Part shown: in pieces, positions 6,330 to 61,905 of the stretch
Layout: each line of letters begins with the position of its first letter
Numbering within the stretch: the stretch's first letter is position 1
Source of the DNA: Chiloscyllium plagiosum
Lineage: Eukaryota
Direction of reading: 5' to 3'
Length of the DNA: 64,000 bases
NCBI RefSeq assembly: GCF_004010195.1
Contig: NC_057751.1
Span: forward strand, 6,580,863-6,644,862
Notes under the pieces: generated by a model
Told to the model about the DNA's origin: nothing
Database searches by the model: none
The model's input: only the letters and a program-made list of their open reading frames with translations
Position numbers and translations under genes: made by a program

Positions 6330-7465
6330 AGAAACTTCGAGCAATGTTAATTTAGAACAAAATTAATCATCACGTGAACAAATTCAGGTTAATAAGGTAA
6401 AGCCAGCACAGATTTTTAAAGGGCATTTCATGTCTAACTGAAAGGCAAGATTCTGCAATTGCTGGAAATCTGACAGAAAAATACAAAGCGCTGGAGAAAC
6501 TCAGCAGGTCTGGCAGCATCTGTGGGAAGAAGCAAAGTTAAAGTTTCTTGTCCTTTCTGATGAAGAGTCACGGGATTCGAAAGATTAACTTTGCTTTCTT
6601 CCCAGAGATGCTGAACATCTCCAGTAATTTCCGTTTTTGTTCCAATGACACTTCTTCATAGATTGGTGGAATCGGCAGACAATGGACTGATGAAATCAAT
6701 GTGAAGAAGTATGAAATGACTCAGTTTGATTGAAACAATGTGGAGAGAAAATAGCAGATAATGTATCCAACTCTAAAAGGTGGTGATATAGCAAAGGGAC
6801 TGGATGTATTTGTGCATAAATCATTCAAGGTGACAGGACAAGTGAAGGAGTTGTTCACGGAGTTGTTCACAAAGCATGTGGAACAATAAGCTTAATCAAA
6901 TAGGCACAGAGTAGAAAAACAAGAGAACTATGTTCAATTTGTGCAGAACACAAATTCAGTGTCACATGAAGTGTTGTACGTGGTTCCAGGCACCACATAT
7001 TTTGAAGGAGGTTGAAGGAGCTGCAGAAAGAATCGATTAAAGATTCAGGACAATTGTTCAAGAAATTGTCCCAGAATTCCAGTTGCGTGCATGGATGAGT
7101 GAAGTTGAAATCAATTTCCTTTGAGAAGATTGAGATGATATTTTCTTATAAGTGTTCAAAACGATGAGGGGTGAGGACAGACTAGTTCAGGTGAAACTGG
7201 CACCATTATTGATGGAAGAATTAAGCATACGGTATTAAGGTATTTGGCAAAAAGACATTATGGCAACATGAGGAGAAAAAGCTTTTGACACAGCAAATAC
7301 TCGGGACCTGGAACTGCACTGCCTGAACAGGTTATGGAGGTGCATTCTATCACGGCACTCAAGAGGGAATTAGATTATTTGAAGTAGAAGAACGCTCAGG
7401 GAGGAGGCTGGAGAGGGGCTTGAGGTATCAACATGAAAGGCCAAATGGTGCATGTTCTGTAAATT
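6330..7465 (+). mobile_element. Old CR1 LINE RT/3' region, interrupted by a palindromic PLE insert
   Basis: 'aggttaataaggtaaagccagcacagatttttaaagggcatttcatgtctaact' resembles the CR1 motif LI..SQHGF.KG.SCLT. Degenerate CR1 3' region follows to about 7465. Confidence 0.65.
6441..6643. mobile_element. Palindromic Penelope-derived short element with hammerhead-like core
   Basis: Left arm 'ctggagaaactcagcaggtctggcagcatctgtgggaagaagcaaagttaa' is inverted relative to right arm 'ttaactttgctttcttcccagagatgctg'. CTGATGA at 6557-6563, stem GAGTC/GATTC, GAAA at 6579-6582. Confidence 0.75.
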
Positions 7466-7577
7466 CTGCACAAAGTATTTGATAATTCCATGAAAAGATG
7501 TGCAAATTGTGAAACGATCTCTGGATTCATGTTTATTGTTCAAATAAACTGTAAACTCCAAATTTGACTGGTAACAC

Positions 7578-7810
7578 AATCACCTCTGAAGTAGAAGATT
7601 GCAAGTTCAAAGCCTGCTTCACTGCTTAATTCACAAGTAACACTCCAATAAATATTGCGGCTGGATGATTAGAATTGCTGCCTTGTGTATCAAGGTGTTT
7701 AGAGTCTAGTGTTCCAAAACATTCTCTGAAGAAGGGTAGAGTCTTTGCCTAGTCTCTTAGCTCACATTACATCCTCAACTACCACAAAAAATCATTATCT
7801 TTTTTATAAC
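7578..7810 (+). mobile_element. Degenerate DeuSINE-like (SacSINE1/AmnSINE1-type) fragment
   Basis: Similar in order and content to the better copy at 55071-55497 ('tcacctctga..agaag...gttcaaa', 'gaagaagggtagag...tagtctcttagc...atcctcaac'). Confidence 0.45.
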
Positions 7811-7831
7811 ATCAGGGTACTTGGTTTTCAC

Positions 7832-8786: not shown

Positions 8787-8897
8787 GATAAGGGATTGGG
8801 GAGAAAGGTGGAGAGACAGAAAAGAGAAGGAGAGGACATGTGGAAGAGAGTTCCAATAAAAGCAATTGATATTATGTTATGCCTCCTTCAGAAATTT

Positions 8898-9130
8898 GCA
8901 GAAATTGCTGGAAAAGCTCAGCAGGCTTGGCAGCATCTGTGGAGAGAAATCAGAGTCAATGTTTCGGATCAAGTGACTCTTCCTCAGAACTGTTCTGAGA
9001 AAGGGTCACTCAATCCAAAATGTTAATTCTGACTTCTCCCCATAATGTTGACGCACCTGCTGAGCTTTTCCAGCAATTTCTGTTTTTGCTTTTGACTACC
9101 AGCAGCCGCAGTTCTTTTATTTTTTATTTA
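8898..9130. mobile_element. Palindromic Penelope-derived short element (two opposed hammerhead-like cores)
   Basis: Arms at about 8898-8990 and 8992-9083 are inverted about a centre at 8991 ('cctcagaac t gttctgag'). The minus core reads GTT-CTGAGGA-A-GAGTC-ACTT-GATCC-GAAAC-ATT. Confidence 0.8.
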
Positions 9131-9284
9131 ATACAACTATTTTGTTCGGAATTGGGAGTTGGGATTGGAATTTTCAGAAAGAAATGACTAAATATTCCTT
9201 CAAGTTTAGGTGAGGGGGGATCAATTGTACACCTTAAAAAGTAAAGGTGAGTTTTATCAGACCAAAGAGCTACTCCCTTATGAC

Positions 9285-9425
9285 AGAAAGGTGACAAGTG
9301 GTGGTTTTATCTGGGGGTCACCTTTGCCTCAGACAAGGGGAAAGGTTTAAAAGGGGAGTCCAGCTGGTGCAGGAATTGAACCCATGTTGTACACATCACT
9401 ATTATCACAAATCAGCCATCAAAGA
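9285..9425 (-). mobile_element. tRNA-derived SINE fragment
   Basis: 'ggaattgaaccc' is a Pol III box B (GGGTTCAATTCC) on the minus strand, with a degenerate SINE body. Confidence 0.5.
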
Positions 9426-10199: not shown

Positions 10200-11650
10200 C
10201 AACCTGCAGAAGCTACTATTTATTTGCCTAAAAACATAAGCCACAAGGTGATGGATGGCCTAAGTTCTTCCACAACATATCAGATCTAAACTCTGCAGGT
10301 CTGCCACATCCTGTCATGAACATTTGTGGATAAATATACAACACACTGAAGGAGTTTGCTCCATAAATATCCTCATACCCATCGACTGGGGAGCCCAGCA
10401 CATCAGTGCATAAGATAAAGGCCATCTTCCATTGCAGCAATCTTCCACCAAAAAATTGGTGAGGGCAAGATCCATCTCAGCTTCCTCCAGAGGTCCTTGT
10501 ATCACAGATGTCAGTTTTAATCCAGCTCCATTAATTTACATGACATCAAGAAATGGCTGAAGGCACTGAGCAATGTAAAAGTTTGTCTTCCAGAAATGTA
10601 CTTGTCTTCAACCAGGCTGTTCCAGTCAAGTTACAATATTGGTGTCTGAGGGAAAAGTGGAAAATTGCCCAGGCATGTCCTGCACACAACAGCAGGCTAA
10701 ACCTAACCCGGCCAATTAGTGACCCATCGGATTATTCACAATCATCAGTAAAGTGATGGAAACGTTATCAATATAGAATCAAGCAGCACTTGCTTAACAA
10801 TGACTTGGTCACTGACGCTCAGTTTGAATTCTGCCAAGGCCACACAATCCAGAACTTATTACAGTCTTAGTTCAAACATGGACCAAAGAGCTGAACTCCA
10901 GAGAAGTGAGCTGAGTGACTGCCTTTAACATCAAATCTGTATTTGACTGAATGTGACGTCAAGGAGCCCAAATAAAATTTTAGCGAATGCGAATAAGGGG
11001 GAAAACTCTCATTTGAAAAGATGATTGTGGTTGTTTGAGGTAATTCGTCTCAGCACCAAGCCACTCATGCAGGAGTTTCTGATACTCGTGTCCTCGGTCC
11101 AACCATCTTCAGCTGCCAATGACCTTCCTTCATGAGGTCATAAGTAGGATATTTGCTAATGTCTGTATAAAGTTCAACACCACTCAGGAGTCCTAAACAT
11201 TGAAGCAGTCAATGTCCAAATGCAGCAGCAGCTGGACAATAAAGAACAATATTGGCATCTACCCAGCAATGCGGAAAATTTGCCCAGGTATGTCCTGTAC
11301 ACAAAAAGCAGGACAAATCCAAGTTGGTCAATTCCCACCCAATCAGTCTACCCTCAGTCATCAGTCAAGTGACGCAAGGTTAAAAAGCAGCATTTGCTCA
11401 ACAACAACTTGCTCGCTAATGCCCAATTTGAGTTCTTCCAGGGTCACTCAGCTCTGACCTCATTACAGCCTTGGTTCAAACATTGACAAAAGACCTGAAA
11501 TCCAGAGGTCAGGTAAGAGTAATGGCCCTTGACATCAAGGTCTCATTTGAGCAAGTATGGCATCAAGGAGTCAGCACAATGGGTATCACTAGGCAAACTC
11601 TCCATTGGTTGGAGTCATACTTGTCACATTGGAAGTTGGTTGTGGTTATA
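10200..11650 (+). mobile_element. CR1/L2-group LINE RT region, two overlapping tandem pieces (junction at about 11240)
   Basis: Peptides 'WKIAQACPAH', 'MVQTLTKDLKSRGQVRVMALDIKVSFEQVWHQG...LHWLESYLSH'. The 'ggaaaatt(t)gcccagg' segment occurs at about 10660 and again at about 11275. Confidence 0.8.
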
Positions 11651-13254
11651 CAGTCATAGAGTCATAGAGATGTACAGCATGGAAACAGACCCTTCAGTCC
11701 AACCCGTCCATGCCAACCAGATATCCCAACCCAATCTAGTCCCACCTGCCAGCACCCGGCCCATATCCCTCCAAACTCTTCCTATTCATATACCCATCCA
11801 AATGCCTCTTAAATGTTGCAATTGTACCAGCCTCCACCACTTCCTCTGGCAGCTCATTCCACACATGTATCACCCTCTGCGTGAAAAGGTTACCCCTTAT
11901 ATCTCTTTTATATCTTTCCCCTCTCACCCTAAACCTATGCCCTCTAGTTCTGGTCTCCCCCACACCAGGGAAAAGACTTTGTCTATGTATCCTATCCATG
12001 CCCCTCATTATTTTGTAAACCTCTATAAGGTCACCCCTCAGCCTCCGCACTCCAGACAAAACAGCCCAAGCTTGTTCAGCCTCTCTCCACAGCTCAAATC
12101 CTCCAACCCTGGCAACATCCTTGTAAATCTTTTCTGAACCCTTTCAAGTTTCACAACATCTTTCTGATAGGAAGGAGACCAGAATTGAATGCAATATTCC
12201 AACAGTGGTCTAACCAATGGCCCGTATAGCCACAACATGACCCCCCAACTCCTGTACTCAATACTCTGACCAATAAAGGAAAGCATACCAAACACCTTCT
12301 TCACTATCCTATCTACCTGCGGCTCCACTTTCAAGAAACTATGAACCTGCACTCCAAGGTCTCTTTGTTCAGCAACACTCCCAAGGACCTTACCATTAAG
12401 TCCTGCTAAGATTTGCTTTCCCAAAATGAAGCATCTTGCATTTATCTGAATTAAACTCCAAGTGCCACTTCTTAGCCCATTGGCCCATCAGATCAAGATC
12501 CTGTTGTAATCTGAGGTAACCTTTTTCATTGTCCACTACACCTCCAATTTTGGTGTCATCTGCAAACTTACTAATCATACCTCTTATGCTCACATCCAAC
12601 TCATTTATATAAATGACAAAATGTAGTGGACCCAGTGCCAATTCTTGTGGTACTCCACTGGCCACAGGCCTACAGTCTGAAAAACAACCCTCCAACACCA
12701 CCATCTGTCTTCTACCTTTGAGTCAGTTCTGTATCCTAATGGCTAGATCTCCCTGTATTCCGTGAAATCTAACCTTGCTAACCAGTCTTTCATGGGGAAC
12801 CTTGTCGAATGCATTGCTTGCTGAAGTCCATATAGATCATATCTACTGCTCTGCCCTCATCAATCCTCATAAAGCTCAATCAAGTTTGTGAGACATGATT
12901 TCCCACGCACAAAGCCATGTTGACTATCCCTAATCAGTCCTTGCCTTTCCAAATACATGTACATCCTTTCCCTCAGGATTCGCTCCAACAACTTGCCCAC
13001 CACCGACGTCAGGCTCACTGATCTATAGTTTCCTGGCTTGTCCTGACAACCCTTCTTAAAGAGTGGCACCATGTTAGCCAATCTCCAGTCTTCCGGCACC
13101 TCACCTGTGACTATCGATGATACAAATATCTCAGCAAGAGGCCCAGCAAATACTTCTCTAGCTTCCCACCGAGTTCTAGGATACACCTGATCAGGTCTTG
13201 GGGATTTATCCACCTTTATGCATTTCAAGACATCCAGCATTTCCTCCTCTGTCA
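11651..13254 (-). mobile_element. HER1-type CR1 LINE, 5'-truncated (RT plus 3' tail), relatively young, nested in the older LINE
   Basis: Minus ORFs give 'KSPRPDQVYPR...NYRSVSLTS...SQHGFVRGKSCLTNL', 'SGVPQ...FADDTK', 'LVRPLLEYCIQFWSP' and 'TRGHRFRV...WNELPEEVVEAG'. (CTATGACT)n tail at 11653-11670. Confidence 0.92.
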
Positions 13255-14605
13255 TATGGAGGTCAGTCATTTGAGCTAAAGAACATCCATGCAGGAGTTC
13301 CCCAGGGTAGAATTCTCGGCCCAACCATCTTTAGCTGCTTCATCAATGATTTTCCCTCCATCATAAGGTCAGAAGTGGGGTTGTTCGCTAATGATTGCAC
13401 AATGTTCAACACCATTCACAATTCCTCGGATACTGAAACAGCCCATGTTCAAATGCAACAAGATCCTGTCAATATCCAAGCTTGAGTTGACAAAAGGCAA
13501 ATAAGGTTTGCACCTCATTCATGCCAAGCAATAATCATCTTGAATAAAAGACAATCCAACACCATCCCTTCACATTCAATGGTATTGCCATCACTGAAGC
13601 CCCTACGATCAACATACTTGGAGTTACCATTGATCAGAAATTTTGCTGGAATCACCACATAGAACAGTGGCTACAACAGCATGTCAGAAACGAGGAATAC
13701 TGTGGTGAGTAACTCATCTCTTGAGTCCTAAACCCTGTCCTTCACGTACAAGACATAAGTAAGGAGTGTGATGGAATATTCCTCACTTGCCTGGATGGAT
13801 GCAGTTCCAACAACACTGAAGAATCCTGACACCATCCACAACAAAATAGCCAACTTCATTAGTACCACATCCACAAGCACCCATTCCCTCTACCATCAAT
13901 GCTCAAGAGGAGCTATCTGGACTATCTAAAAGTTGCATTGCACAAATTCACAAAAAGTCCTCAGGCAGAACCTTCCACACCCATGACCACTGGTGGGTGG
14001 CACGGTGGCACAGTGGTTAGCACTGCTGCCTCACAGCGCCTGAGACCCGGGTTCAATTCCCGCCTCAGGCGACTGACTGTGTGGAGTTTGCACGTTCTCC
14101 CCGTGTCTGCGTGGGTTTCCTCCGGGTGCTCCGGTTTCCTCCCACAGTCCAAAGATGTGCAGGTCAGGTGAATTGGCCATGCTAAATTGCCTGTAGTGTT
14201 AGGTAAGGGGTAAATGCAGGGGTATGGGTGGGTTGCGCTTCGGCGGGTCGGTGTGGACTTGTTGGGCCGAAGGGCCTGTTTCCACACTGTAATGTAATCT
14301 AATCTAATCTAATCTAATCTAATCACTTCCATCTATAAGGACAAGGGAAACAGATGCAGGGAAACACCATCACATGCAAGTTCTCCTCCAAGCCACTCAT
14401 CATTCTGACCCGGAAATATATCATCATTCTTTCACTGTCACTGGATCAGAATTCTGGAATTCTTTCCCGAACAATATTGTAGATCAACCTACAGTACATG
14501 AACTGCAGTGGTTCAAGAAGGCAGCAAACTGCCAACTCCTTGAGGACAACTTGAGTTAGGCAATCAATACTGGCCAACCAGGGACACTAACATCCCATGA
14601 ATGCA
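13255..14605 (+). mobile_element. Continuation of the CR1/L2-group LINE (RT core to 3' end), interrupted by an HE1 SINE
   Basis: 'AGVPQGRILGPTIFSCFINDFPSIIRSEVGLFANDCTMF' (PQG and degenerate YADD motifs), 'WNSFPNNIV...WFKKAA'. Ends 'catcccatgaatg'. Confidence 0.85.
13992..14323 (+). mobile_element. HE1-type tRNA-derived SINE (V-SINE), full length
   Basis: Box A TGGCACAGTGG at 14006-14016, box B GGTTCAATTCC at 14050-14060, V-domain-like 'gtggagtttgcacgttctccccgtgtctgcgtgggtttcctccggg', HER1-like 3' part and (TAATC)n tail. Confidence 0.93.
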
Positions 14606-15234: not shown

Positions 15235-15323
15235 CCTAAAGACGGGTTACACCCAAAACGTTGACTTCTCCACCTCCTGATGCTGCCTGGCTTGCTGCGT
15301 TCTTCCAGCCTCCCGCTTGTCTA
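15235..15323 (+). mobile_element. Short PLE terminal fragment with degenerate hammerhead-like core
   Basis: 'ctaaaga-c-gggt-tac-accc-aaaac-gtt...gatgctgcctggcttgctgcgttcttccagc' has the same layout as the other PLE ends. Confidence 0.6.
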
Positions 15324-19950: not shown

Positions 19951-20270
19951 GATTAGATTAGATTCCTTACAGTGTAGAAACAGGCCCTTCGGCACAACCA
20001 GTCCACACCGACCCCCCCGAAGAGCAACCCACCCAGACCCATTTCCCTCTGACTAATGCACCCAACACTATGAACAATATAGCATGGCCAATTCACCTGA
20101 CCTGCACATCTTTGGACTGTGGGAGGAAACCGGAGCACCCGGAGGAAACCCACGCAGACACGGGGAAAATATGCAAACTCCACACAGACAATCGCCTGAG
20201 GCTGGAATCAAACCTGGGACCCTGGTACTGTGAGGCAGCAGCGCTTACCACTGAGCCATTGTGCCGCCCC
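19951..20270 (-). mobile_element. HE1-type SINE, full length
   Basis: Reverse complement of the 13992 element: 'gattagattagatt' tail, 'ggaggaaacccacgcagacacgggga', head '...ccattgtgccgcccc'. Confidence 0.92.
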
Positions 20271-28171: not shown

Positions 28172-29372
28172 GAAAGTGACTGCAAATGCTGGAGATCACT
28201 TTAATAAGGCTGGAAGATTTTGCAGCAGAAGTTGGTGCTGGAAAAGCACAGAAGGTCAGGCAGCATCCAAGGAGCAGGATCCCGACTCAACACTGACATT
28301 TTCTACGAAACCACCGACTCCCATAGCTACCTGGATTACACCTCCTCCCACCCTGCCTCCTGCAAAAATGCCACCCCTTATTCCCAATTCCTCTGCCTCC
28401 ACTGCATCTGCTCCCAGGAGGACCAGTTCCACCACAGAACACACCAGATGGCCTTCTTCTTTAAAGACCGCAATTTCCCTCTCGTGTGGTTGATGATGCC
28501 CTTCAGCGCATCTCATCCACTTCCTGCACCTCCGCCTTCGAACCCCACCCCTCCAAGCGCAACAAGAACAGAAACCCCGCGGTCCTCACCTTCCACCCAC
28601 CAACTTCTCTATACATTGCATCATGATCTGCCATTTCCGCCACCTACAAATGGACACCAGAAGTATATTTCCCTCCTCACCCCTATCCGCTTTCCATAGA
28701 GACCGCTCCCTCCGCGACTACCTCAACAGGTCCACGCACCCCAGCAACCCACCCTCCCATCCCGGCACCTTCCCCTGCCACCATAGAAATTGCAAAACCT
28801 GCACCCACACGTCCCCCCCACCTCCGTCCAAGGCCCCAAAGGAACCTTCCACGTCTATCAAAGTTTCACCTGCACTTCCAAGTCATTTACTTTTTCTATG
28901 CAGTGGGGAGACAGGATGCCTACTCGCATAGCACATCTCTGGGACACCTGCACCAACCAACCCCACCACCTTGTGGCTGAACACTTCAACTGCCCCTCCC
29001 CCTCTGCCGAAGACATGCAGGTCCTGGGCCTCCTCCATCACCACTCCCTTACCACCCAACGTCTGGAGGAGGAACACCTCATCTTCCACCTCAGGACGCT
29101 CCCATCTCTTTATTCCAGTTTCAACCTTCCAGCTCAGCACCCACCCTCATGAGCTGTCCCATCTGTCCCACCTTCCTTCCCACCCTCCCTCTGACCTACA
29201 CCTTTACCCCCACCTCCATCCACTTATTGCACTCTCAGCCAACTTCTCCCTAGCCCCATCCCCCTCCCATTTATCTCTCCACCCCCGAGGCTCCCAGCTT
29301 TATTCCTAATGAAGGGCTTTTGCCTGAAACGTTAATTTCCCTGCTCCTCGATGCTGCCTGACCGGCTGTGCC
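28172..29372 (+). mobile_element. Penelope-like retroelement, 5'-truncated (RT thumb plus GIY-YIG region plus terminal repeat), with an inverted terminal-repeat piece at its 5' end (about 28172-28278)
   Basis: 'TDIFYETTDSHSYLDYTSSHPASCKNATPYSQFL', 'GTFPCHHRNCKTC', 'VAEHFN...QRLEEEHLIFHL'. Hammerhead-like core at 29306-29333 (G5 mutated). Confidence 0.88.
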
Positions 29373-29794: not shown

Positions 29795-30395
29795 ACAAAA
29801 CAAACAACTGTGGATGCTGGAAAACTGAATCCACAACAAAAATTCCTGGAGAAACTGAGCAGGTTTGGCAGCATCTGTGGAGAGAAAGCAGGGTTAATGT
29901 TTCAAGTTCAGTTCTGAGGAAGGGTCACTGGACTTAAAACGTGAACTCTGCTTTCTCTCCACAGATGAGTGGGCGGCACAGTGGCACAGTGGTTAGCACT
30001 GCTGCCTCACAGCGCCAGAGACCCCAAGTGGGCGGCACGGTGGCACAGTGGTTAGCACTGCTGCCTCATAGCGCCAGAGACCCGGGTTCAATTCCCGCCT
30101 CAGGCGACCGACTGTGTGGAGTTTGCACATTCTCCCCGTGTCTGCGTGGGTTTCCTCCGGGTGCTCCGGTTTCCTCCCACACTCCAAAAATGTGCAGGTT
30201 AGGTGAATTGGCCACGCTAAATTGCCTGTAGTGTTAGGTGCAGGGGTAAATGTAGGGGAATGGGTCTGGGTGGGTGCGCTTCGGCGGGTCGGTGTGGACT
30301 TGTTGGGCCGAAGGGCCTGTTTCCACACTGTAAGTAATCTAATCTAATCTAATGATGCCAGTTCTGCTCAATTTCTCCAGAAATGTCTGTTTTTA
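29795..30395. mobile_element. Palindromic PLE-derived element interrupted by an HE1 SINE
   Basis: Left arm 'ctggagaaactgagcaggtttggcagcatctgtggagagaaagcag'. Core GTT-CTGAGGA-A-GGGTC-ACTG-GACTT-AAAAC-GTG at 29911-29943. The right arm resumes after the SINE at about 30354. Confidence 0.75.
29968..30353 (+). mobile_element. HE1-type SINE with a tandemly duplicated 5' head
   Basis: A 59-bp head at 29968-30026 is repeated from 30027. Box B at 30085-30095, (TAATC)n tail. Confidence 0.93.
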
Positions 30396-34203: not shown

Positions 34204-34480
34204 CCAGAGTTTAGATCAGAGTGGTGCTGGAAAAGCACAGCAGGTCAGGCAGCATCCGAGGAGCAGGAAAATCAACGTTTTGGGCAAAAGCCCTTCATCA
34301 GGAATAGAGGCAGGAAGCTCTGTCCACCCGGGTGGCTTCCTTCTTCTGTTCCTGATGAAGGGCTTTTGCCCAAAACGTCGATTTTCCTGCTCCTCGGATG
34401 CTGCCTGACCTGCTGTGCTTTTCCAGCACCACTCTGATCTAAACTCTGGTTTCCAGCATTTGCAGTCCTCACTTTTGCCT
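34204..34480. mobile_element. Young palindromic PLE-derived element with two opposed hammerhead-like cores
   Basis: Near-perfect inverted arms at about 34204-34317 and 34336-34449. Central palindrome ccacccgggtgg at 34324-34335. Flanking duplication 'attaa(g)ctgccag'. Confidence 0.9.
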
Positions 34481-34863: not shown

Positions 34864-35047
34864 GATGCAGGAGAGTCGGTTGAAAAGTGTGGCACTGCAA
34901 AAGCACAGCATGTCAGGCAACATCCAAGGAGCAGCAGAGTCAAAGTTTCAGGCATAAGGCTAAAGAGTTTATGCCCAAAACGTCGACTCTGCTGCTCCTT
35001 GGATGCTGCCTGAGCTGCTGTGCTTTTCCAGTGCCACACTTTCCACA
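34864..35047. mobile_element. Palindromic PLE-derived element inserted in CR1 ORF1
   Basis: 'aaagtgtggcactgcaaaagcacagca...catccaaggagcagcagagtc' is inverted against 'gactctgctgctccttggatg...tgctgtgcttttccagtgccacacttt'. Flanked by a direct repeat 'tctgccccag' (34854-34863 and 35048-35057). Confidence 0.85.
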
Positions 35048-37589: not shown

Positions 37590-37770
37590 GTAAAAATAGG
37601 CAGTGCTGGAGAAATTCAGCAGGTCTGGCAAAACCGTGATAAGAGAAACGGAATTAGCATTTTGAATCTAATGTGAATCGCCACACATATTGCCAGACCT
37701 GCTGAGTTTCTCAGGTACTTGGTGTTTTTATTTCAGATCTCCAGCATCTGTAGTACTTTGCTTTTATTTG
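37590..37770. mobile_element. Older palindromic PLE-derived element
   Basis: 'gagaaattcagcaggtctggcaa' is inverted against 'ttgccagacctgctgagtttctc'. Tail 'gatctccagcatctgtagtactttgctttta'. Confidence 0.75.
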
Positions 37771-37882: not shown

Positions 37883-37910
37883 CTGAAGAAGGGCTTATGC
37901 CCGAAACGTC
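37883..37910 (+). ncRNA. Minimal type-I hammerhead ribozyme core (all core nucleotides intact; helix I not evident)
   Basis: CTGAAGA-A-GGGC-TTAT-GCCC-GAAA-CG-TC: CUGANGA box, 4-bp helix II, GAAA box, palindromic ACGU helix III, GUC triplet. Confidence 0.65.
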
Positions 37911-37973
37911 GATTCTTCTGTTCCCTGGATGCTGCCTGAGCTGCTGCGCTTTTCCAGCAACACATTTTCAGCC
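37886..37973 (+). mobile_element. 88-bp PLE terminal insertion with a 16-bp target-site duplication
   Basis: Direct repeat catattctgcatactg at 37870-37885 and 37974-37989 flanks the PLE end sequence. Confidence 0.88.
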
Positions 37974-41498: not shown

Positions 41499-42338
41499 AT
41501 CTGGGAGAACCCAGTACCGATCAGTGGTGAGTCCCCAAGATGGCTGATAAAGGGGTTTGGTGATGGCAGTGTCACGTCAGCAGTACGCATCTGTGCAAGG
41601 GGCATGGAAATAAGCAAAACTCCTTCCATTCTGACCATTCAGGCATTTCCATATCACAAACGACACAGTCCAAGTCAGAGAAAATATAATACCACTTCAC
41701 TAATCCAGTTTAATCCAACCAGAGAAAGCAACTGACTCATCTGATTCATATTTCAGTTCCCAAACTGACCATCAAATTGAATCTTGCAAATGAAATGTTC
41801 AAATTCTTATTGGGTTTTATAGCTATAGCGACTTTATATTGTATATATTTGTATATGTGTCTATATTTTTATATATGAAGTTGTAGGCTGTTGCAAATTA
41901 TATACCTGAACTAAGTGGAAATTCAGTTAATTGAGGTTAGAAACAAGGAGGTTGAGACAAATACAAGATGAAACAATGAACTACAGATGCTGGAAATCTG
42001 AAACAAAAATAGAAATTGCAGGAGAAACTCAGTAGGTCCAGCAGCATCTCTGGAGAAAAAGCAGAGCTAACATTTTGAGCCCATTGATCCTTCTTCAGAA
42101 CTGGACTTGAACCACTAACAGGATTGGTGAAGTGGCATTATTTTCCTATGCCTTGGACCTATGCCGTTTGTGATATGGGAATGGCTGAATGGTCAGAATG
42201 CAAGGAACTTTGCTTATTTCCATGCCCCTTGCACAGATGCTTACTGCTGACGTGACATTGCCATCACCAAACCCCTTTATCAGCCATCTTGGGGACTCAC
42301 CACTGATCAGCAACTGGACTGGGTTCTCTCCATAGATT
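41499..42338. repeat. Inverted repeat: arms at about 41499-41684 and 42141-42338, spacer about 455 bp
   Basis: The core 41519-41662 matches the reverse complement of about 42165-42308 with 7 mismatches in about 144 bp by eye. Confidence 0.95.
41975..42105 (-). mobile_element. PLE-derived terminal fragment inside the inverted-repeat spacer
   Basis: 'acagatgctggaaatctgaaacaaaaatagaaattgcaggagaaactcagtaggtccagcagcatctctggag...cttcttcagaac' is the same family as the 8898 element. Confidence 0.75.
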
Positions 42339-45215: not shown

Positions 45216-45371
45216 AACACCTCATGTCACCTTTGACTCTTTTGTCAATCAACAAAATCTCTACTCTGGTTCCTGAACCTTTTTATATACCTTATAAAAA
45301 CTATTGAAGTGTTTGGACACCTATATTATATCTGTCTTGAACATTCCCTGTTCTAAGTAAAATTCCAGCTT

Positions 45372-46684
45372 GAGTTTTTGAAGAAGAATCAAAGAGGATT
45401 GATGAGGGCAGAGCAGCGAACATGATCTATATGGACTTCAGTTAGCCATTCAACAAGGTTCCTCACCTGTGCCCGAAACGTCGAATCTCCTGTTCCCTGG
45501 ATGCTGCCTGACCTGCTGTGCTGTTCCAGCAATAAAGTTTCAACTGGTTAGCAAGGTTAAATCACATGGAGTACAGGGAGACCTAGCCATTTCGATAGAG
45601 AGCTGTCTTGAAGATAGAAGACAGAGGGTGATGATGGAGGGTTGGTTTTCAGACTGGAGGCCTGTGACCAGCGGTGTGCCAAAAGGATTGGTACTGGGTC
45701 CACTGCTTTTCATCATTTACATAAATGATTTGCAAGTGAACATAGGAGGTATAGTTAGTAAGCTTGCAGTTGACACTAAAATTAGAGGTGTAGTGAACAG
45801 TGAAGAAGGTTATCTCAGAGTACAACAGGATCTTGATCAAATGGGCTAATGGGCTGAGGAGTGGCAGATGGAGTCTAATTTAGATAAATGTGAAGTGCTG
45901 CATTTTGGAAAAGTAAATCAGGGCAGGATTTAAGCACTTAATGGTAAGGTCCTAGGGGTTGTTGCTGAACAAACTGACCTCAGAGTTTATAGTTCCTTGA
46001 AAGTGGAGTCTCAGGTAGATAGGATAGTGAAGAAAGCATTTAGTATGCTTTCCTTTATTCGTCAGAGCATAGAGTATAGGAGTTAGGAGGTCATGTTGCA
46101 GCTGTACAGGACATTGGTTAGGCCACTTTTGGAATATTGAATGTAATTGTGGTCTCCTTCCTGTAGGAAAGATGTTGTGAAACTTGGAAGGTTCATCAAA
46201 GATTTACAAGGATATTGCCCGGGCTTGAGGGTTTGAGCTATAGGGCGAGGCTGAATAGGCTGGGGCTATTTTCCCTGGAACGTCGGAGGCTGAGGTATGA
46301 CCTTAGAGAAGTTTATAAAATCATAAGGGGCATGGATAGGGTAAATAAACAAGGTCTTTTCCCTTGGTTGGGGGGGGTCCAGAACTGGAGGTCATAGATT
46401 TAGGGTGAGAGGTGAATGATTTAAAAGGGACCTAAGGAGCAACATATTCATGCAGAGTGTGGTATGTATATGGAATGAGCTGCCAGAGGAAGTGGTGGAG
46501 ACGAGTACAGTTACAATATTTAAAAGGCATCTGGTTGGGTACATGAATAGGAAAAGTTTAGAGGGATATAGGCCATGTGCTGGCAAATGGGACAAGATTA
46601 ATTTGGGATATCTGGTCAACATGGACAAGTTGGACTGAAGGGTCTGTTTCTGCGCTGTACATCTCTATGAATCTACGACTCTAT
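45372..46684 (+). mobile_element. HER1/CR1 LINE RT to tail, with a short PLE end inserted at about 45468-45544
   Basis: '[26 protein letters not shown]...LAVDTK', 'WNELPEEVVE'. Insert 'gcccgaaacgtcgaatctcctgttccctggatgctgcctgacc...aataaagtttcaa'. Confidence 0.9.
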
Positions 46685-48557
46685 CTGTCCAGTTAACCAA
46701 AGTCCCCTTATAGTAGTACCACAACAGTAAACAGTCTCTACTTTTCTCTTGCATAATCAAGCCAAAAAGCCCACATTGTATTTTAAAAATCATCTTCTTG
46801 TCTTACCACTGTGAAAACTGGACAAGTTAGAACTCAAAACAAAAGCTTACTCATTCGATTTTTTTTGTTCATTTAATTAAAGTGATGGTTAATCACTGAG
46901 CCACAATCTGCAGCCTTGTGTGACTTGCTTTCACAACAGAACCAAAGTTTATTACATCAAAAAGAACAATTTATCTAAATATCAAAGACAGCTATCAAGA
47001 TCTAAAATGCACAGCCATACAGTTTTTCCAACACCCCACTCTCAACTCTGATCTCCAACATCTGCAGTCCTCACTTTCTCCCATACAAAGGGTCAACCTG
47101 CTCTCCACGTTATCCATTTCAGAGGCTCGAGACCAGAGAAATGACACCTGATATCTCAAACTCTTTAGTCTTCTACTGACTCCTGACAGTTTATTGGCCT
47201 AAAACTGTCAAGACATGCGTATGATGTAAGGAATACCATTCATCACAATAGATCCTTGTGTTTTCTGTTCCTGCAACTCCTTTAAAATTGTACCACTTAG
47301 TTCAAATTCTCCCTTCTCGTGCAGCAATTTGTACAACCTTGCACTAAATTATTGGCCATGTGCTCATTTCAGTCAATCTGCCAATGTTTTGCTGAAGTGT
47401 GATATTCTCCTCCTTGTTGCTTAGAGCATTTCAAAGTTTTGTACTATTTGCAGTCTTTTATGCCCTATATCCCTTGGTCCAGGCTATTAAAACTCATCAA
47501 AAAAGTACTTGCTGTCCCAATACTAACCTCTGAGTTAATGCCAGTGAATACCTCCTGCTATCCGAAAACAACCAATTCTTTGATCAATCCTTCACCATGC
47601 CGATCTGCTTTCAATCAGTAACTATAATTTTTATCCTGTGATGACTGTTCTTTTGATCTCGTGGATTATAATTTTCCTAAGAAGTCAACAATATTTCTCA
47701 CCGAGAAGAATGCCATTCAGTGTCCATATGCAGTTGGCTGGTAAGGTCATGATAGGCATTGTTCCTGAACAGTTGCAATACCCCTTCCAGCAATTTCATG
47801 CAACAGTGTAGTTTGTGGGGTCACTGCATTGGTGTCGGACTAGTATCATCTTTTGGCCAGATGGAAAAAGGATGGGGCGCAGAGGGGGAGGTGTGCAGTT
47901 TCTACTGCTTACTGACATTTGGGAACCAAATTGAGTATTACAAGTGAGAAATTACAATAATTTAAACCTCACTTCTTTGTATTATGCATCTTACTCTTCG
48001 AACTACTCATCCAATAATATTACCACAATACAAACATATCCCTAAATTTCTCTCTTCTTCCAAATCCCAGTGTTGCATCAGATATCACTTCTCAGCCATC
48101 TGTTAGGACATGACTGCTCCCTTGTAACATAACGACTTAACATTGCAGGAATGTTGTTGCTGGGATAATAGCACAGTCACATTCCAAAATCCCAATGTGC
48201 ACTCACCCTCTTTATTTTGCCTCGTAATTTCCTCCAGCTCTGCAATTGGCCTTCCCAAGAACTATGAATTCCTCTGACTCCAGCTTGTGTAACGTTTTTG
48301 CCCTTTATCCAACCATTTGCTATTGAAGTGTAAACATTTCATGTGAATATGTAAGTAAGATAGGCAGCATCAACATTGGGAAACAATATCACATCACATG
48401 GTTATGTAGAGGAGGTAAAGCTGAGGTCATGATCAGTATTAGTATTTGCTGCACTGAAATAAAAGCTGATGTTTGTCATTATCAAAGGAATTTTGCATTC
48501 ATCACTGACCCCTCTCCTGGGCACAATCAAATCAGAACAGCTGACATTTGCCTCCAG

Positions 48558-49913: not shown

Positions 49914-49929
49914 CTGGCAAGATTATGGA

Positions 49930-52410: not shown

Positions 52411-52477
52411 TATAAACTTTCATGACAAAGCAAACTATTTTTGAGCAATGAAATCCCACTGTAACATTTTGTAATAT

Positions 52478-53905
52478 TCAGGTTGAAAGTTTTGCTCTCT
52501 GAGCTGGAAGATTTGTTTTCAGACATTTTGTTATCACGCATGGTAACATCATCAGTGAGCCTCCATTGAAGTGCTGGCATTCTGTCCGGCTTTCTATTTA
52601 TGTGTCTTGGTCTGTTGTGGTGGGTGATATTACTTGCAGTTTTTTTTTCTGAGAGGTTGGTAAATGGAGTCCAAATTGATGTGTTTGTTGATGGAGGTAC
52701 AGTTTGAATACCACGCCTCTAGGAATTCCTGTGCGTGACCTTTTTTCACCTGTCCCAGGATGGATGTACTGTCTCAGTCAAACTGGTGTCCCTGATCACC
52801 CGTGTCAAAGAATACCAGTGATAGTTGGTTGTGTCTTTTGGTGGCTAATTGGTACTCATGTATGCTGGTGGCTAGTTCCCTGCCCATCTGTCCAGTATAA
52901 TGTTTGTTGCAGTCTTTAGAGGGTATGTTGTATACGACGTTCATTCTGCTGGTTGTTGGTACAGGATCCTTTAGATTCATCAGGAGCTGTTTCAGTGTGT
53001 TAGTAGGTTTGTGGGCTACAGTGATGCCCAGGAGCCAGAGTAGTCTGGTCGTCATCTCTGAGATGTCTTTAATGTATGGTAGTGTGGCTCGAGTCTCTCG
53101 GCGTGTTGTGTCTACTTGTTTAGATTTGTTGTGTAGGAATCGGCGGACTGTGCTTATCGGGTACCTGTTGTTCTTGAATACGTTGCAGAGGTGTTTTTCT
53201 TTGGCATCTCATAGTTCCTGGGTGTTGCAGTGTGTTGTGGCTCATTTAAATAATGTCCTGATGCAGCTCTGTTTGCGGATGTTGGGATGAGTATCTGGTC
53301 TGCGGATGTCACTTTCCTGTCGATGCTGGTCTGCAGCTTTCCATTGGCATTTTGTTCTATTGTGACATCTAGGAAGGGAAGTCTGTTGTTCTCTTCTTCC
53401 TTGGTGAACTTTATACCAGTAAAGATGTTGTTTATGTGTTTGTGGGCTTCTTCTAATTTGTTCCCTTGTAAATGGGGTCCAAGTCAATGTGTTTGTTGAT
53501 GGAGTTCTGGTTTAAATGCCAAGTCTCTATGAATTTCCATGCGTGTCTTTGTTTCACCTGTCCCAAGATGGATGTATTGTCCCAGTTCAACTGGTGTCCC
53601 GCATCGTCTGTGTGTAAGGATACAAGTGATAGTTGGGGCACCCAATGAGAGGGACACCATAACTCCAATAACAAACATGTTGATTTGAACCCCATTTACC
53701 AACTTCTCAGAAAGAGAATAAGAAGTAATGTCACCCACCACAACAGACCAAGAAAGTGGGACAGAACACAAGCACCACAACAGAGGCTCACTGATGATTT
53801 TACCTAACATGGTGACAAAACATCTGAGAACAAATCTTCCAGCTCAGTGAGCAAATGTACAACCTGAACCATAGCATGAGCTACAAATCCTCACAAAAAT
53901 CACAA
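52478..53905 (-). mobile_element. Second Penelope-like family: RT thumb plus GIY-YIG fragments, with a duplicated and inverted terminal region (plus-strand terminal piece at about 53660-53905)
   Basis: 'GITVAHKPTNTLKQLL...NVVYNIPSKDCNKHYTGQMGRELATSIHEY' (GIY-YIG), 'HPNIRKQSCIRTLFK', 'NWDNTSILGQ...AWKFIETWH'. Terminal sequence occurs at 52478-52700 (-) and 53660-53905 (+). Confidence 0.88.
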
Positions 53906-56785: not shown

Positions 56786-57571
56786 TTTACATCAACCCTT
56801 ACCCTGCTGAGAAAACTCAGCACTCAGAACATCACTCCAATAAAATTTACAAAGAGCACCTTGAGGGCAAAAAGGACTTTTTTCCTTTGCAGTGGGCTGT
56901 TTGGGAAGCCTGCAGGGCTGTTTTTGAAGACATTTACAATTGACTTTTTTTTATCGATTCTGTGTGTGCTAGCAGCGGGCAAAAATCATTGCCCTTGAAT
57001 CTTTTCTGTGTGAGAACTTCTGTGCAAAATGCTCTTCGGAGGTCTCTAATCTGCAAATATTGGCATGTCTGAAGATGCCACAAGTACTTAGTTTCCTAAA
57101 GTTTTAGTTTTGAAGTCAGTAGAAAGTATTCAAGAAGTTCTGTTTGTTTTAAATGATATAAATGGGAATATGATATTTATTTGTCACGCATGTGATGAAA
57201 ATATTGAAACAAAAACTTGCCAGGCAATCATTGCTAAGGATATTGCACTTTTAAATGATACTGGACATAATAATGATGAGCGATTTGAACACTCATTTTA
57301 AAGAGTTCCAATAAGATCTGACTGTCCACCATTGCAAAGTATTTTCATGGATCATAAATAAGTACATCAACATGTCGATAAGATAGCATTACTATTTTGA
57401 ATACAGTTGGGAAATGTGCACACAAAATGTTTTGAATGTTGCACTGCTATAGGTTACAATTAATGTTACTGGTAAAATTAGTTTGCGGAATAGCAAATGT
57501 AAAATCTTCCATGAACCAGTGCAATCAGTCAGCATCATTAACAGTATTTTTTTAATAACAAAATATTTAGA

Positions 57572-57918
57572 GGCATAGAGCTGCATGGCACAGAAACAGA
57601 CTCTTCGGTCCAGTTCGTCCATGCTGGCCAGATATCCTAAGTTAATCTAGTCCGATTTGCCAGCATTTGGCCCATATCCCTCCAAACCCTTCCTATTTAT
57701 GTACCTATCCAGATGCTACTTAAATGTTGTAATTGTACCAGCCTCCACCACTTCCTCTGGCAGCTCATTCCATACATGCACCACCCTCTGTGTGAAAAAG
57801 TTGCTCCTTAGGAGCCTTTTATGTCTTTCTTCTCTCACTTTAAACCAATGCTTTCCAGAATTGCACTCCCCTATCTGGGTAAAAGAGCTTGGCTATTCAC
57901 CCTATCCATGCCCCTCAT
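57572..57918 (-). mobile_element. HER1/CR1 3' end
   Basis: Closely similar to 11660-12005. Confidence 0.88.
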
Positions 57919-58649
57919 AAACGTCTTCTTGGCAATACTGTGCAGCTGTAACAATTCAGCAGAATCTCATAAATAGGCATTTTTAAGAAGAAATCTGTTC
58001 TCCAAATTTATGTTATCTGATATAAGTGAAATCTGTCCTGAACTATTTAATAGTTTTATGAGTGTGCACCTCTCAGATCTTTCATAAAATCAACATTTTT
58101 GGTGGGAGGGCAAAATGTAGATGTGGTATTGATTAACAGTTGTTTTAAGAAATGCCTCCTCAAAGGTCACATCACAACATATAAAGCATATGCTTCAGCA
58201 ATGAGTAGCATATGAAAGTTACTGCCATCTTATTAAGATAAAATTGTTAACTGTATTCAGAAGCAATAAAGTAGTTCACAATAAATTACCAAATCACAGA
58301 CGCCCGTATGGAACCTCTGCCGCGGCAGCTGTTTGTCAGCTGATTGCTCTAGAAATTGTCAGGAACTGTTGATTTCTCAGACGAGAATATTTTCCTATCA
58401 GAAAAATGGCACATTGTTCAATTCAGCGCGGCTGTGCAGAGTAGGTTGAGCTTGGGCTTGCTCACAACATTACCTGATGGATTGCTGCTTTTCGAATCCT
58501 CCACGGCAACATCACATCCTGTCTCTAGATCCTTCTCTTTCAAATTATAGCAACTTTCACACCTTCAATTTTCATGTCTCTGCCATTGTTAGCCGGGCCC
58601 TCAATTGCCCAAGCCCTGAGCTCTGGAATTTCCTTTAATGATAAATCCA

Positions 58650-58912
58650 TCCGAGGACAGGCTAAATAAAGACATGCATGGGAATTCAAACCAGAACTCC
58701 ATGAACAAACATTTCAATTTAGACCCCATTTACCAACCTTTCTGAAAAAGAACTGGAAATTATATCACCCGCCACAACAGACCAAGACACATAAATAGCA
58801 AGCGAGACAGAACACCAGTGCTTCATTAGAGGCTCACTGGTAATGTTACGGAGCATGGTGATGAAACGTCTGAGAACAAATCTTCCAGCTCAGTGAGCAA
58901 ACTTACAACCTA
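58650..58912 (+). mobile_element. Terminal fragment of the second PLE family
   Basis: Matches 53660-53865 ('ccccatttaccaac', 'gaggctcactg...gaaacgtctgagaacaaatcttccagctcagtgagcaaa'). Confidence 0.85.
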
Positions 58913-59304
58913 ATTTCCTTCCTAGATCTCTCCACTTTTCTGCCTCAGTCTATTTGAGTCAACCCTCAAAATGGAGCTCTTTAGCCAACCTTTTGGTACA
59001 ATATGAAACAAACTTTGACACTGAGCCCACATGAGGTGATCTAAAGACTGTTGACTAAAATCAACTTGCTATCTCCTTCATTGGATCTATTGTGCTTGTT
59101 ATTGTACCTATGAAGAACATGGTCAATGTTACTATCATAACTAGCTATATAGATGCAGGTTGTGTTGTTCATGGACAGATATGAATGAAGACCAAATCAC
59201 AGGTAGCTCATTATTCTGACTCCCTTGGGCCAGATGCGTCATTCATAAAATAATTGAAAAAAAAAATTCCCCTTGGCTTTTTTTTTGTGAAATTTTTAAT
59301 AACA

Positions 59305-61905
59305 AAACAGTCAAAGAGTGTCATGCTGGAAAAGCATAGCTGGTCAGGCAGCATCCAAGGACCAGGAGGATCAACGTTTCGAGCATAAGCCTTTCATCAG
59401 GAATGAGGTGGTGGCCCAAGGGGACTGAGAGATAAATGGGACGGGGTTGGGGTTTAGGGGGAGGTAGCTGGGAGCGCAATAGGTAGATGAAGTTGGGGGT
59501 GAAAGTGGTAGATTGAAGAAGAGGGTGGAACGGAGAGGTGGGAAGGAAGATGGACAGGTAGGACAGATCGAGAGGGCAGTGCCATGATACAGGGTTGGAT
59601 CTGGGATAAGGTGGGGGCAGGGAAAATGAAGAAACTGATGAAATCCCGTGTAGTTGGAGGGTCCCAAGGCAGAAGATGAGGCTTACTTCCTTCAGACGTC
59701 AGGTGGCTGGAGTTTGGCGGTCGAGGAGGCCCTGGTCTTGCATGTCCTTGGCGGAGAGGGAAGAGGAGTTATAGTATTCACCACAGGGCAGTGGCATTGC
59801 TTAGTGCATGTGTCCCAGAGATGTTCTTGGAAACGTTCCGTGAGTTGACGTCCTGTCTCCCCAGTGTAGAAGAGACCACATTGAGAGCAATGGACACAGT
59901 AGATGACGTGTGTGGAAGTATAGGTGACTGTTTGTCGGATGTGGAAGAATCTTTTGGCCCCTTGGACGGCGGTGAAAGGGGTGGTGTGGGCGCAGGTTTC
60001 GCAATTCTTGTGGTGGCAGGGGAAGGTGCCGGGAATGGAGGGTGGTTTGGTGTGGTCGTGGACCGAACACGGGAGTTGCGGAGGGAATGATCTCTCCAGA
60101 ATGCAGATAGGGGTGGGGAGGGGAGCACATTCCTGGTGGTGAGAGGTGCAGGAAATGGAGGAGATACTCTGGAGGGCATCATCGACCATGTGACAGGGGA
60201 AATTGCGGTCTTTGAAAAACAGGTCATCTGGGATGTTCTCAGATGGAATTGGTCCTCCTGGGAGCAGATGCGGTGGAGGCAGAAGAACTCGGAATAAGGA
60301 ATAGCATTGTTGCAGGAGGCAGAGTGGGAGGAGGTGTAGTCCAGGTAGCTGAAGGAGTCGATGGGTTTGAAGTAGATGTCTGTGTTGAGTCAGTCACCGG
60401 AAATGGAGATGGCGAGGTCCAGGAAGGGGAGAGGGGTGTCCAAGATGGTCCAGGTGAACTTGAGGTGAGGGTGGAAGGTGCTCGTGAAATAATGAATTGT
60501 TCAACCTCCTTGTGGGAGCACGAGGTGGCGCCAATACAGTCATCGATGTAGTGGAGGAAAAGGTGGGGAATGGCGCCTCTGTAGCTGCGGAATATGGACT
60601 GTTCCATGTACCCAAAGAAGAGGCAGGCATAGCTGGGGTCTATGCCGGTGCCCTTGGCTACCCCTTGGTCTGGAGGAAGTGGGGGGATTTGAAGGAGAAA
60701 TTGGTTGAGTTTAAAGACCATTTTAGCCAATCGAATGAGTGTATCAGTGGAAGGGTACTGGTTGCATTGGCCGGAGAGGAAGAAACACAGGGCTTGGGGG
60801 GCCTTTATCATGGCAGAAGGATGTGTACAGGATTGGAAGTCCATAGTGAAGATGAGGCGTTGAAAGCCTGGGAAACGAAAGTCATGGAGGAGATGGAGGG
60901 CATGGGTGGTGTCCCGAAAGTATGTGGGGAGATCCTGGACCAAGGAGGACAGGATGGTGTCAAGGTACGCAGAGTTAAGTTCAGTGGGGCAAGAGCAGGC
61001 TGACACGATGGGTTGACCGGGGCACTCAGGTTTGTGAATTTTGGGTAGGAGGTAGAACCAGGTGGTACGGGATTCCCAGACTATGAGGTTGGAGGCAGTT
61101 GGAGGAAGATCCCCTGAGGTAATGAGATTGTGGATGGTCTGGGAGATGATAGTTTGGTGATGGGAGGTGAGGAGGCAGTAGGAGGAAGTGTCCGTGAGTT
61201 GGCGCCTGTGGAGGTCGGTGCACCAAACCTACCACTTTGGTGCCCTTGTCTGCTGGTTTGATGGTGAGGTTGGGGTTGGAGTGGAGGGAGTGGAGGGCTG
61301 CGCATTGTGAGGGTGAGAGGTTGGAGTGGGTGAGAGAGGTGGACAGGTTGAGACGGTCAATGTCACGGCAGGAGTTGAAGATGAAGAGATCGAGGGTGGG
61401 TAACAGACCAGCACGGGGTGTCCAGGTGAATGAGGTGTATTGGAGAAGAGGTCCTCAGAGGGTGGGTGGAAGTCCTGATGGAAAAAGTAAGCACGGAGGC
61501 GGAGGCTGTGGAAGAAAAGTTCAAGGTTGCAAAGCATGTTGATTTCATTGATCCGAGGTCGTAGGGTAATCAAGGTGATGCCTTTACTGAGGACTGATTG
61601 TTCATCCTCGGTGAGTGGGAGGTTTGGGGGGGATGGTTAAAACAGCAGGGTTGGAAGCTAGGATCTGGTGTGGGGCTGGAATTGGAGTGGGGGCAGAGGC
61701 TGTCTCTGGAATGGGTGTTGTTATGGGATTGGAGGGTGACGTCATCACCAGAAATGACATTCATCCTGGGGCTCAGGGTGGGGGAGGGTGGTGGGAAGCG
61801 GTGCCTTCAGTGGCACCCGTGGGGCGGAAGTGACGTAACATGTCATGTATGCGATGTCATCGGCGATGTCCTGATGAGTGACATTAATGGGGGCGGAACT
61901 GGCTG
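59305..61905 (-). mobile_element. Near full-length, frameshifted Penelope-like retroelement (RT plus GIY-YIG endonuclease plus terminal repeat)
   Basis: RT motifs 'IFTMDFQS', 'QGVAKGT...PSYACLFFG', 'FLHYIDDCIG'. GIY-YIG 'VIYCVHCSQCGLFYTGETGRQLTERFQEH'. Terminal repeat at 59305-59640 with a hammerhead-like core. Confidence 0.92.
59373..59404 (-). ncRNA. Hammerhead-like core in the PLE terminal repeat (core intact, helix II closing pair mismatched)
   Basis: Minus strand: ATTC-CTGATGA-A-AGGC-TTAT-GCTC-GAAA-CG-TT. Confidence 0.55.

What the first reader, a model, noticed from the sequence alone, without database searches (positions are those of the whole stretch)
6557..59404. Dispersed minimal hammerhead ribozyme cores of three sequence families in Penelope-like element ends
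Seen: about a dozen loci share the layout CTGA-N-GA, one extra nucleotide, a short hairpin, GAAA-CG-T-H. Consensuses built by eye: family A ATTC-CTGATGA-A-GGGC-TTWT-GCCC-GAAAC-GTC-GA(A/T)T (29306, 34301 minus, 34352, 37883, 45470 partial, 59400 minus); family B AGTT-CTGAGGA-A-GGGTC-ACTN-GACCC-GAAAC-GTT-AACT (6557, both arms at 8991, 29914); family C CTCA-CTGATGA-T-GTTACC-N6-GGTGAC-GAAAC-GTC-TGAG (52555 minus, 53791, 58837). Helix I and II sequences differ between families yet stay complementary, which is the covariation expected of a real RNA fold. Established: PLE terminal repeats carry minimal type-I hammerheads whose helix III is reduced to a palindrome and which are thought to cleave as dimers; an extra nucleotide after A9 is tolerated in a viroid hammerhead. 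Inference: shark PLE lineages kept such a ribozyme, all with the post-A9 insertion, and scattered it densely. Most individual copies here are mutated.
Basis: partly seen in the sequence, partly recalled or inferred. Interest (0 to 1): 0.72.

Follow-up and report, generated by a model that had tools for sequence, protein, structure and literature searches.

The report
Shark Penelope ends carry known hammerheads
These motifs are real, mostly mutated copies of the small hammerhead self-cutting RNA motif already described at the ends of Penelope-type jumping genes, and the start points of their genomic copies suggest that most were likely copied from uncut RNA and a few percent likely from RNA that had cut itself.

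Summary
Observation confirmed, novelty not. All 13 cited sites exist (0 hits in 3 shuffles). Four keep both catalytic boxes; none keeps the full fold. They are ends of three Penelope-like element (PLE) families in a shark-type genome, beside RT/GIY-YIG remnants. Exact core patterns occur 15,207, 96 and 383 times. The post-A9 nucleotide is a published hallmark of all metazoan PLE minimal hammerheads (PMC4209133), not a shark trait. Family A helix I usually has a U·U mismatch (141 of 181). A true compensatory change exists within family C.

Copy boundaries add something. Family A 5' ends pile up at the first base of helix I (65 of 288 within 4 nt), about 31 nt after a TATA-like box: probably the transcript start. 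In a young subfamily, starts at the predicted cut number 101, against 9, 35 and about 10 at neighbouring positions: a possible trace of cleavage in vivo. An extra cap G was not supported. The scan already noted both patterns in this genome. No cleavage was measured.

The parts
6486..6625 (+). Family B stub with inverted arm; core at 6557 keeps both boxes, helix III palindrome lost
8893..9085 (.). Family B head-to-head pair joined at the 5' edge of the ribozyme; cores at 8987- (boxes kept, stem II mismatch, palindrome lost) and 8995+ (G8 changed)
28233..29370 (+). 5'-truncated family A PLE: short inverted arm (28233-28283), decayed RT-thumb/zinc-finger/endonuclease remnant, pLTR with core at 29306 (G5 changed)
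29798..29965 (+). Family B stub with inverted arm; core at 29914 (G12 changed); a SINE-like repeat follows
34204..34449 (.). Family A head-to-head pair, arms 97% complementary; cores at 34301- and 34352+, both with G12 changed
34886..35043 (.).
37883..37969 (+). Family A stub starting at C3: core, stem II and palindrome intact, 5' strand of helix I absent
41971..42103 (-). Additional decayed family B copy, core at 42098
45470..45533 (+). Family A 3' half only, inside a LINE-like repeat
52470..53400 (-). Family C PLE 3' part: GIY-YIG-type remnant, TATA-like box, core at 52555 (stem II deletion, G12 changed)
53470..53870 (+). Inverted partner of the family C insertion; core at 53791 (G10.1 and G12 changed)
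58690..58901 (+). Family C 3' fragment; core at 58837 (A6 and G8 changed)
59317..61640 (-). Long decayed family A PLE: RT with YIDD motif, cysteine linker, GIY-YIG remnant, pLTR with core at 59400 (boxes kept, G10.1 changed)

Best explanation
The motifs are minimal type I hammerhead sequences in the terminal repeats of three Penelope-like retrotransposon families, and the scattered copies are mutated end-pieces, likely passengers, made when the element's enzyme likely copied the front of its own RNA.

Shown: the motif, its link to PLE protein remnants, head-to-head inversions, two 3' end points about 36 nt apart, and core conservation across subfamilies whose flanks diverge.

Inferred: (1) RNA starts about 31 nt after a TATA-like box, at the first base of helix I in families A and B and about 18 nt before C3 in family C, where A9-U-G10.1 is likely the start codon (about 0.7). 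(2) Reverse transcription starts about 90-125 nt further in, as measured for the anole element, and runs off the RNA's 5' end, giving short stubs that keep the uncut ribozyme (about 0.7). (3) The ribozyme cuts slowly, as an ACGU-paired dimer or with help from the element's protein, and a few percent of copies come from cut RNA (about 0.55). Cutting would remove the cap and, in family C, the start codon.
For: PLE link: homologues of the 59-61 kb ORF carry PF00078 and PF26215, some also PF01541. Same-strand PLE protein hits lie within 700 nt upstream of 43 of 318 A, 47 of 132 C and 2 of 131 B copies, plus B locus L048. Inverted arms: 76 of 223 A, 29 of 65 B, 27 of 110 C. 3' ends of A: 87 of 318 at +44 to +49 and 117 at +80 to +86 from the anchor, matching the published 30-40-bp tail (PMC8557442, PMC11167929).

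Fold: the extra base is A in 179 of 181 A and 36 of 40 B, U in 84 of 88 C. Pair 2.3-1.3 in C is U-A in 40 and C-G in 37 of 88. Pair 2.1-1.1 is C-G in A, U-A in B, A-U in C. Subfamily majority lines differ in the flanks but in the core only at N7 and loop 2, apart from G·U at 10.1-11.1 in some B and C lines.

5' ends: 27 of 288 A copies start at -4 and 65 at -5 to -2, against 0.54 per position upstream and 11 of 283 simulated uniform cuts (Fisher p 1e-11). B: 30 of 131 at -6 to -2.

Cut site, genome-wide: 101 starts against 9 (-2), 35 (+1) and 10 (+2, after 54 of 64 indel variants were set aside). In C, 79 of 132 copies read AUG at A9-U-G10.1, and 48 of the 79 stay open for 30 codons, the layout of anole PAc.
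Against: No cleavage or transcript start was measured. RNA reads showed both strands and no start or end peak. Family C shows no sharp 5' peak: 87 of 131 run past -60. B positions rest on 3 references.

In the 288-copy sample the cut site (7) is equalled by two other interior positions. Setting aside ambiguous prefixes gives 51 against 32 at +1 (p 0.048). Position -1 was not counted genome-wide, and only one subfamily was tested.

An extra cap G was not supported: 5 of 21 non-inverted copies. Genome-wide the raw count was 318 G against 225 A, but AG against AA is about 80 to 99 when scaled from the first 100 rows of each.

The D. virilis promoter is internal and TATA-less. In the anole, cleavage was not needed for insertion in vitro and no reads ended at the cut. 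Helix I in A is weak, and minimum-energy folding of the A and C reference copies did not give the hammerhead helix I or the dimer.
Confidence: 0.8

Rival explanations
1. The motif is kept as a promoter, translation-start or protein-binding element and rarely or never cuts in the animal. The excess of starts at the cut site comes from endonuclease preference for ATT or from microhomology at inverted junctions.
For: The anole enzyme prefers ATT, and catalytic mutants still insert in vitro. Both family A peaks lie at or next to an ATT. 23 of 100 listed cut-site rows end in CAG and may borrow the G from an inverted arm. A young C subfamily has G·U at 10.1-11.1. Naiads spread without hammerheads.
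Against: Starts at the G before ATT (101) outnumber starts at the A (35). Family B peaks at AGUU, not ATT. Catalytic positions stay fixed while flanks change. Some head-to-head pairs have both arms starting at the cut (C2:20821518 and 20821520).
Confidence: 0.3
2. The short copies are an independent non-autonomous element (retrozyme or SINE) that spreads as its own unit, possibly through RNA circles.
For: Most B copies are short and only 2 of 131 show ORF upstream. A 2026 preprint reports PLE-derived tandem retrozymes in one chondrichthyan.
Against: 5' ends are graded rather than fixed, long copies continue into PLE ORF, and 3' ends show the PLE tail. Window copies are single or inverted, not tandem arrays.
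Confidence: 0.07
3. The resemblance to a hammerhead is chance pattern-matching in old repeats.
For: The box pattern alone is not enriched in the window. Rfam reports no hammerhead.
Against: All three families fit the published consensus position by position, with compensatory changes at positions not used for selection.
Confidence: 0.01

Closest known systems
Minimal hammerheads (min-HHR) in pLTRs of metazoan PLEs, Cervera and De la Pena 2014 (PMC4209133; parts 1-2 of 4 and part 2 of supplement file 2 read; supplement file 1 could not be searched)
   Same: CUGANGA-H, G10.1-C11.1, GAAA, two-base palindrome, UH, short helix I with U-rich flanks; several families per genome; mostly single dispersed copies; some close pairs on opposite strands.
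   Different: Sharks were not found in the searchable supplement. Exact-match count of family A (15,207) exceeds their coelacanth and Xenopus totals (about 4,000 and 9,000). Family A has a U·U in helix I. The parts read do not map copy ends.
Poseidon PAc of Anolis carolinensis, Frangieh et al. 2024 (PMC11167929; parts 1-2 of 4 read)
   Same: Family C has the start codon at the beginning of stem II, the cut 28 nt later (26 in PAc), and family A has two 3' end points that define a tail.
   Different: PAc was tested: cleavage needs the protein and is dispensable for insertion in vitro. Nothing was tested here. They found no reads at the cut; genomic starts at the cut are in excess here.
Neptune/Nematis-type and Penelope/Poseidon-type EN+ PLEs (PMC8557442, PMC3846280; passages read)
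   Same: RT then GIY-YIG, 5' truncation, inverted 5' copy, tail, TATA plus Inr-like motifs in the pLTR. A shows cysteine motifs before the endonuclease; the C remnant does not.
   Different: Clade assignment is by motif only; no tree was built.
Non-LTR retrozymes (bioRxiv 10.64898/2026.07.22.740005; part 1 of 5 and passages read)
   Same: Type I hammerheads related to PLE pLTRs, present in a chondrichthyan.
   Different: Retrozymes are tandem arrays; these copies are single or inverted stubs.

Membership tests
PLE minimal hammerhead | CUGANGA and GAAA boxes with UH cleavage triplet | tested here: met
   Met at family level. Boxes intact in 131 of 318, 20 of 131 and 60 of 132 3'-anchored copies and in 4 of 13 cited sites.
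PLE minimal hammerhead | One unpaired nucleotide between A9 and 10.1 | tested here: met
   A in families A and B, U in C; published as conserved. The extraction pattern assumed one such base; the subfamily lines confirm the register.
PLE minimal hammerhead | G10.1-C11.1 closing stem II | tested here: met
   G-C in 137 of 181 A. B and C show many G·U (20 of 40; 43 of 88), partly CpG decay; G·U is the majority state in one young C subfamily.
PLE minimal hammerhead | Palindromic 15.2-16.2 with no helix III loop | tested here: met
   CG, or its decay forms CA and TG, in 171 of 181 A, 32 of 40 B and 79 of 88 C.
PLE minimal hammerhead | Short helix I (4-5 bp in the published description) | tested here: inconclusive
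   B 4 bp, C 3 bp, A 2 bp + U·U + 1 bp. Published examples include 2-3 bp.
PLE minimal hammerhead | Self-cleavage as dimer or with protein | not testable with these tools
   Only the indirect excess of genomic starts at the cut.
EN+ Penelope-like element | Motif lies in the terminal repeat downstream of an RT + GIY-YIG ORF | tested here: met
   A; Pfam GIY-YIG only at E 0.018, below cut-off. C. B: rests on L048 and L330.
EN+ Penelope-like element | 5' truncation, inverted 5' copy, 30-40-bp tail | tested here: met
   (tail measured for A only)
EN+ Penelope-like element | RT groups with a named PLE clade in a tree | not tested
   No tree built.
Non-LTR retrozyme | Tandem array of non-coding hammerhead units | tested here: not met
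   Window copies are single or inverted; no genome-wide array search was run.

The most novel reading that the evidence does not exclude
The genome keeps a two-state record of the element's RNA. Most stubs begin at the capped start, which is the first base of the ribozyme, and a few percent begin at the scissile bond. The minimal hammerhead would then cut in the germ line and act as a self-decapping switch that also removes the start codon in family C. This would be genomic evidence that these weak ribozymes work in animals.
Probability: 0.4. Interest if true: 0.55.

Novelty: new member of a known kind. Interest (0 to 1): 0.27.

Why it matters
The motif class and its post-A9 base are published, so the finding as written extends it to a shark-type genome with very high copy number. 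What is still open is whether PLE hammerheads cut in vivo and what for: PMC8557442 calls their function unclear, and PMC11167929 found no reads at the cut. With more than 80,000 family A ends, this genome allows base-level counts of where copies start, which makes that question testable. The scan has already noted both start patterns in this genome, so this window adds a recount with controls, not a discovery.

Tried and rejected
Rfam scan: no hammerhead family among 14 matches. Pfam on 10 ORF fragments: one weak GIY-YIG hit and one unrelated weak hit. PDB sequence search: nothing for two fragments.

First 5'-end mapping was discarded because references included inverted copies (script failed at B). 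The -9 peak was largely an artefact of missing subfamily references; it was remapped.

The +2 control was inflated by indel variants (54 of 64 rows, sorted by hand).

Extra G before the start: not supported. The test is indirect and small, so this is inconclusive rather than refuted.

Sequencing runs: no RNA holder listed. One raw single-cell poly(A) run laid 1,465 reads on both strands, 96% running on into unlike sequence, with no start or end peak; the second run laid none. This is read as passive inclusion in host RNA and not used as evidence.

Lunse et al. 2016 was not held; its dimer result is taken from a review's passage.

Literature searches listed no paper on shark PLE hammerheads and none whose listing reports copy starts at the cut; subscription papers and Repbase were not searched. 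Copies whose upstream sequence reads N were counted as censored (22 of 310). The sample comes from contig C1 only; 160 of 184 planned stretches were obtained.
Full report
Observation. Every cited site is present. Using three real genomic copies as references, 13 core-bearing hits appear in the window and none in three shuffles. They are the 12 cited cores plus an uncited family B copy at 42098-; the cited site at 45470 is a 3' half. The box pattern alone is not enriched (4 against 1.8 expected), and Rfam gives no hammerhead. The families are real repeats: exact core patterns occur 15,207 (A), 96 (B) and 383 (C) times in G000 with reversed controls at 0. Exact 3' anchors occur 83,881, 5,309 and 13,862 times. 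In the window 4 of 13 cited sites keep both boxes and none keeps the whole fold. In 3'-anchored genomic copies, chosen without regard to the core, a full minimal fold remains in 76 of 318 A, 10 of 131 B and 28 of 132 C (a few A copies were filed under B there).

What carries them. Window 59317-61640 minus is a long decayed element with an RT YIDD motif, a cysteine linker and a GIY-YIG-like end. Its RT finds 40 homologues, 39 at E below 1e-38, carrying PF00078 and PF26215 and in some PF01541. The best two are Chiloscyllium punctatum proteins, which match young loci at 94-98%. Family C follows a different GIY-YIG remnant without that linker. Same-strand PLE hits lie upstream of 43 of 318 A, 47 of 132 C and 2 of 131 B copies, one of the B hits probably unrelated. 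B's link rests on L048 and L330. Inverted arms (76 of 223, 29 of 65, 27 of 110) and two 3' end modes about 36 nt apart in A match published PLE anatomy (passages). The reading of A and B as Neptune/Nematis-like and C as Poseidon-like is by motif only.

The fold. Subfamily majority lines diverge in the flanks while the boxes, the extra base and the CG palindrome stay fixed. Pair 2.1-1.1 is C-G in A, U-A in B and A-U in C. Within C, pair 2.3-1.3 is U-A in 40 and C-G in 37 of 88 copies, a compensatory change between subfamilies; these are counts of related copies, probably one event. Energy minimisation did not recover the hammerhead helix I or the dimer for A and C.

What is known. Cervera and De la Pena 2014 (PMC4209133; parts 1-2 and one supplement part read) give the same consensus and name the nucleotide between 9 and 10.1 as conserved. 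They report several covarying families per genome, thousands of dispersed copies in coelacanth and Xenopus, no monomer cleavage and low dimer cleavage. Shark names were absent from the searchable supplement; file 1 could not be searched. A 2026 preprint finds PLE-related retrozymes in one chondrichthyan. For anole PAc the ORF starts at stem II, cleavage needs the protein, and it is dispensable for insertion in vitro. Family C has that layout: 79 of 132 copies read AUG at A9-U-G10.1, and 48 of those are open for 30 codons. The 'inserted' U in C is thus likely the middle letter of the start codon.

Where copies start. I noted the clustering before consulting earlier findings (note); the transcript-start reading came from them and was then tested. 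Of 310 mapped A copies 22 were censored by N. Of 288, 27 start at -4 (first base of helix I) and 65 at -5 to -2, against 0.54 per position upstream and 11 of 283 simulated uniform cuts (p 1e-11). B has 30 of 131 at -6 to -2, on only three references. C is mostly long (87 of 131) with no sharp peak. A TATA-like word stands about 31 nt before -4 in A and B and before -18 in C; it is a good TATA in B and C and a weak one in A. TATA and Inr-like motifs in pLTRs are published for rotifer PLEs, whereas the D. virilis promoter is TATA-less. An extra G from the cap was not supported: 5 of 21 non-inverted copies, and AG to AA about 80 to 99, scaled from the first 100 rows, although the raw G to A count was 318 to 225.

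The cut site. In the sample, 7 of 288 A copies start at the first base after C17, which two other interior positions equal, so the sample is inconclusive. Genome-wide, for one young subfamily with four non-templated letters required upstream, starts number 101 at the cut, 9 at -2, 35 at +1 and 10 at +2 after setting aside 54 of 64 indel variants. Removing insertion-like, tandem and inversion-ambiguous rows by hand leaves about 51 against 32 at +1 (p 0.048; against all three controls p 4e-7). Some inverted pairs start both arms at the cut. The rival is endonuclease preference for ATT or microhomology; it predicts +1 rather than 0. Position -1 and families B and C were not counted.

Mechanism, committed. 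Master elements keep a working-type minimal hammerhead at the very front of their RNA. Reverse transcription begins inside the first 90-125 nt and often runs off the uncut 5' end, which scatters short ribozyme-bearing stubs that then decay. A small share comes from RNA that had cut. Identity about 0.97, transcript start about 0.7, cleavage in vivo about 0.55. RNA data gave no test.

Verdict. Real, correctly identified, and a new member of a known kind. The feature offered as novel is a published hallmark. The scan lists 1,136 notes with these words in at least 37 genomes, including both start patterns in this genome. Interest 0.27.

Noticed in passing
L151, L155, L156, L158, L163, L167, L168, L174 (family C young subfamily): G10.1 faces U11.1 in the majority line of 23 copies while the neighbouring CpG is kept, so the source element likely carried the wobble and still spread.
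   Followed up: partly
G000:C2:128805990-128806081 and C16:30315962-30316022: Head-to-tail 31-nt units that restart at the predicted cut site.
   Followed up: no
G000:C2:20821493-20821545 and C98736:10552-10605: Head-to-head pairs in which both arms begin at the predicted cut, 1-2 nt apart.
   Followed up: partly
G000, listing: 9 of 100 rows look like a one-base insertion exactly at the scissile bond; similar insertions one base later appear in 2 of 35 rows.
   Followed up: no
window 6565-6578: Stem II of the 6557 copy differs from the family B consensus on both strands yet all five pairs can still form; possibly a further subfamily.
   Followed up: no
window 11520-13330, 44100-46700, 57550-57920: LINE-like RT remnants (CR1-type by recalled motifs) in several copies.
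   Followed up: no
window 13985-14204, 20057-20269, 30020-30242: Three copies of a short repeat, 86-95% alike, probably a tRNA-derived SINE (recalled resemblance); one directly follows the 29914 stub.
   Followed up: no
window 37592-37719: Very decayed inverted family B pair with no core left.
   Followed up: no
window 41519-41668 and 42159-42308: 150-nt inverted repeat, 94% complementary, enclosing the 42098 family B copy.
   Followed up: no
families A and B, downstream of the cut: They share about 30 nt of sequence after the ribozyme, so their terminal repeats are homologous; C is unrelated there.
   Followed up: partly
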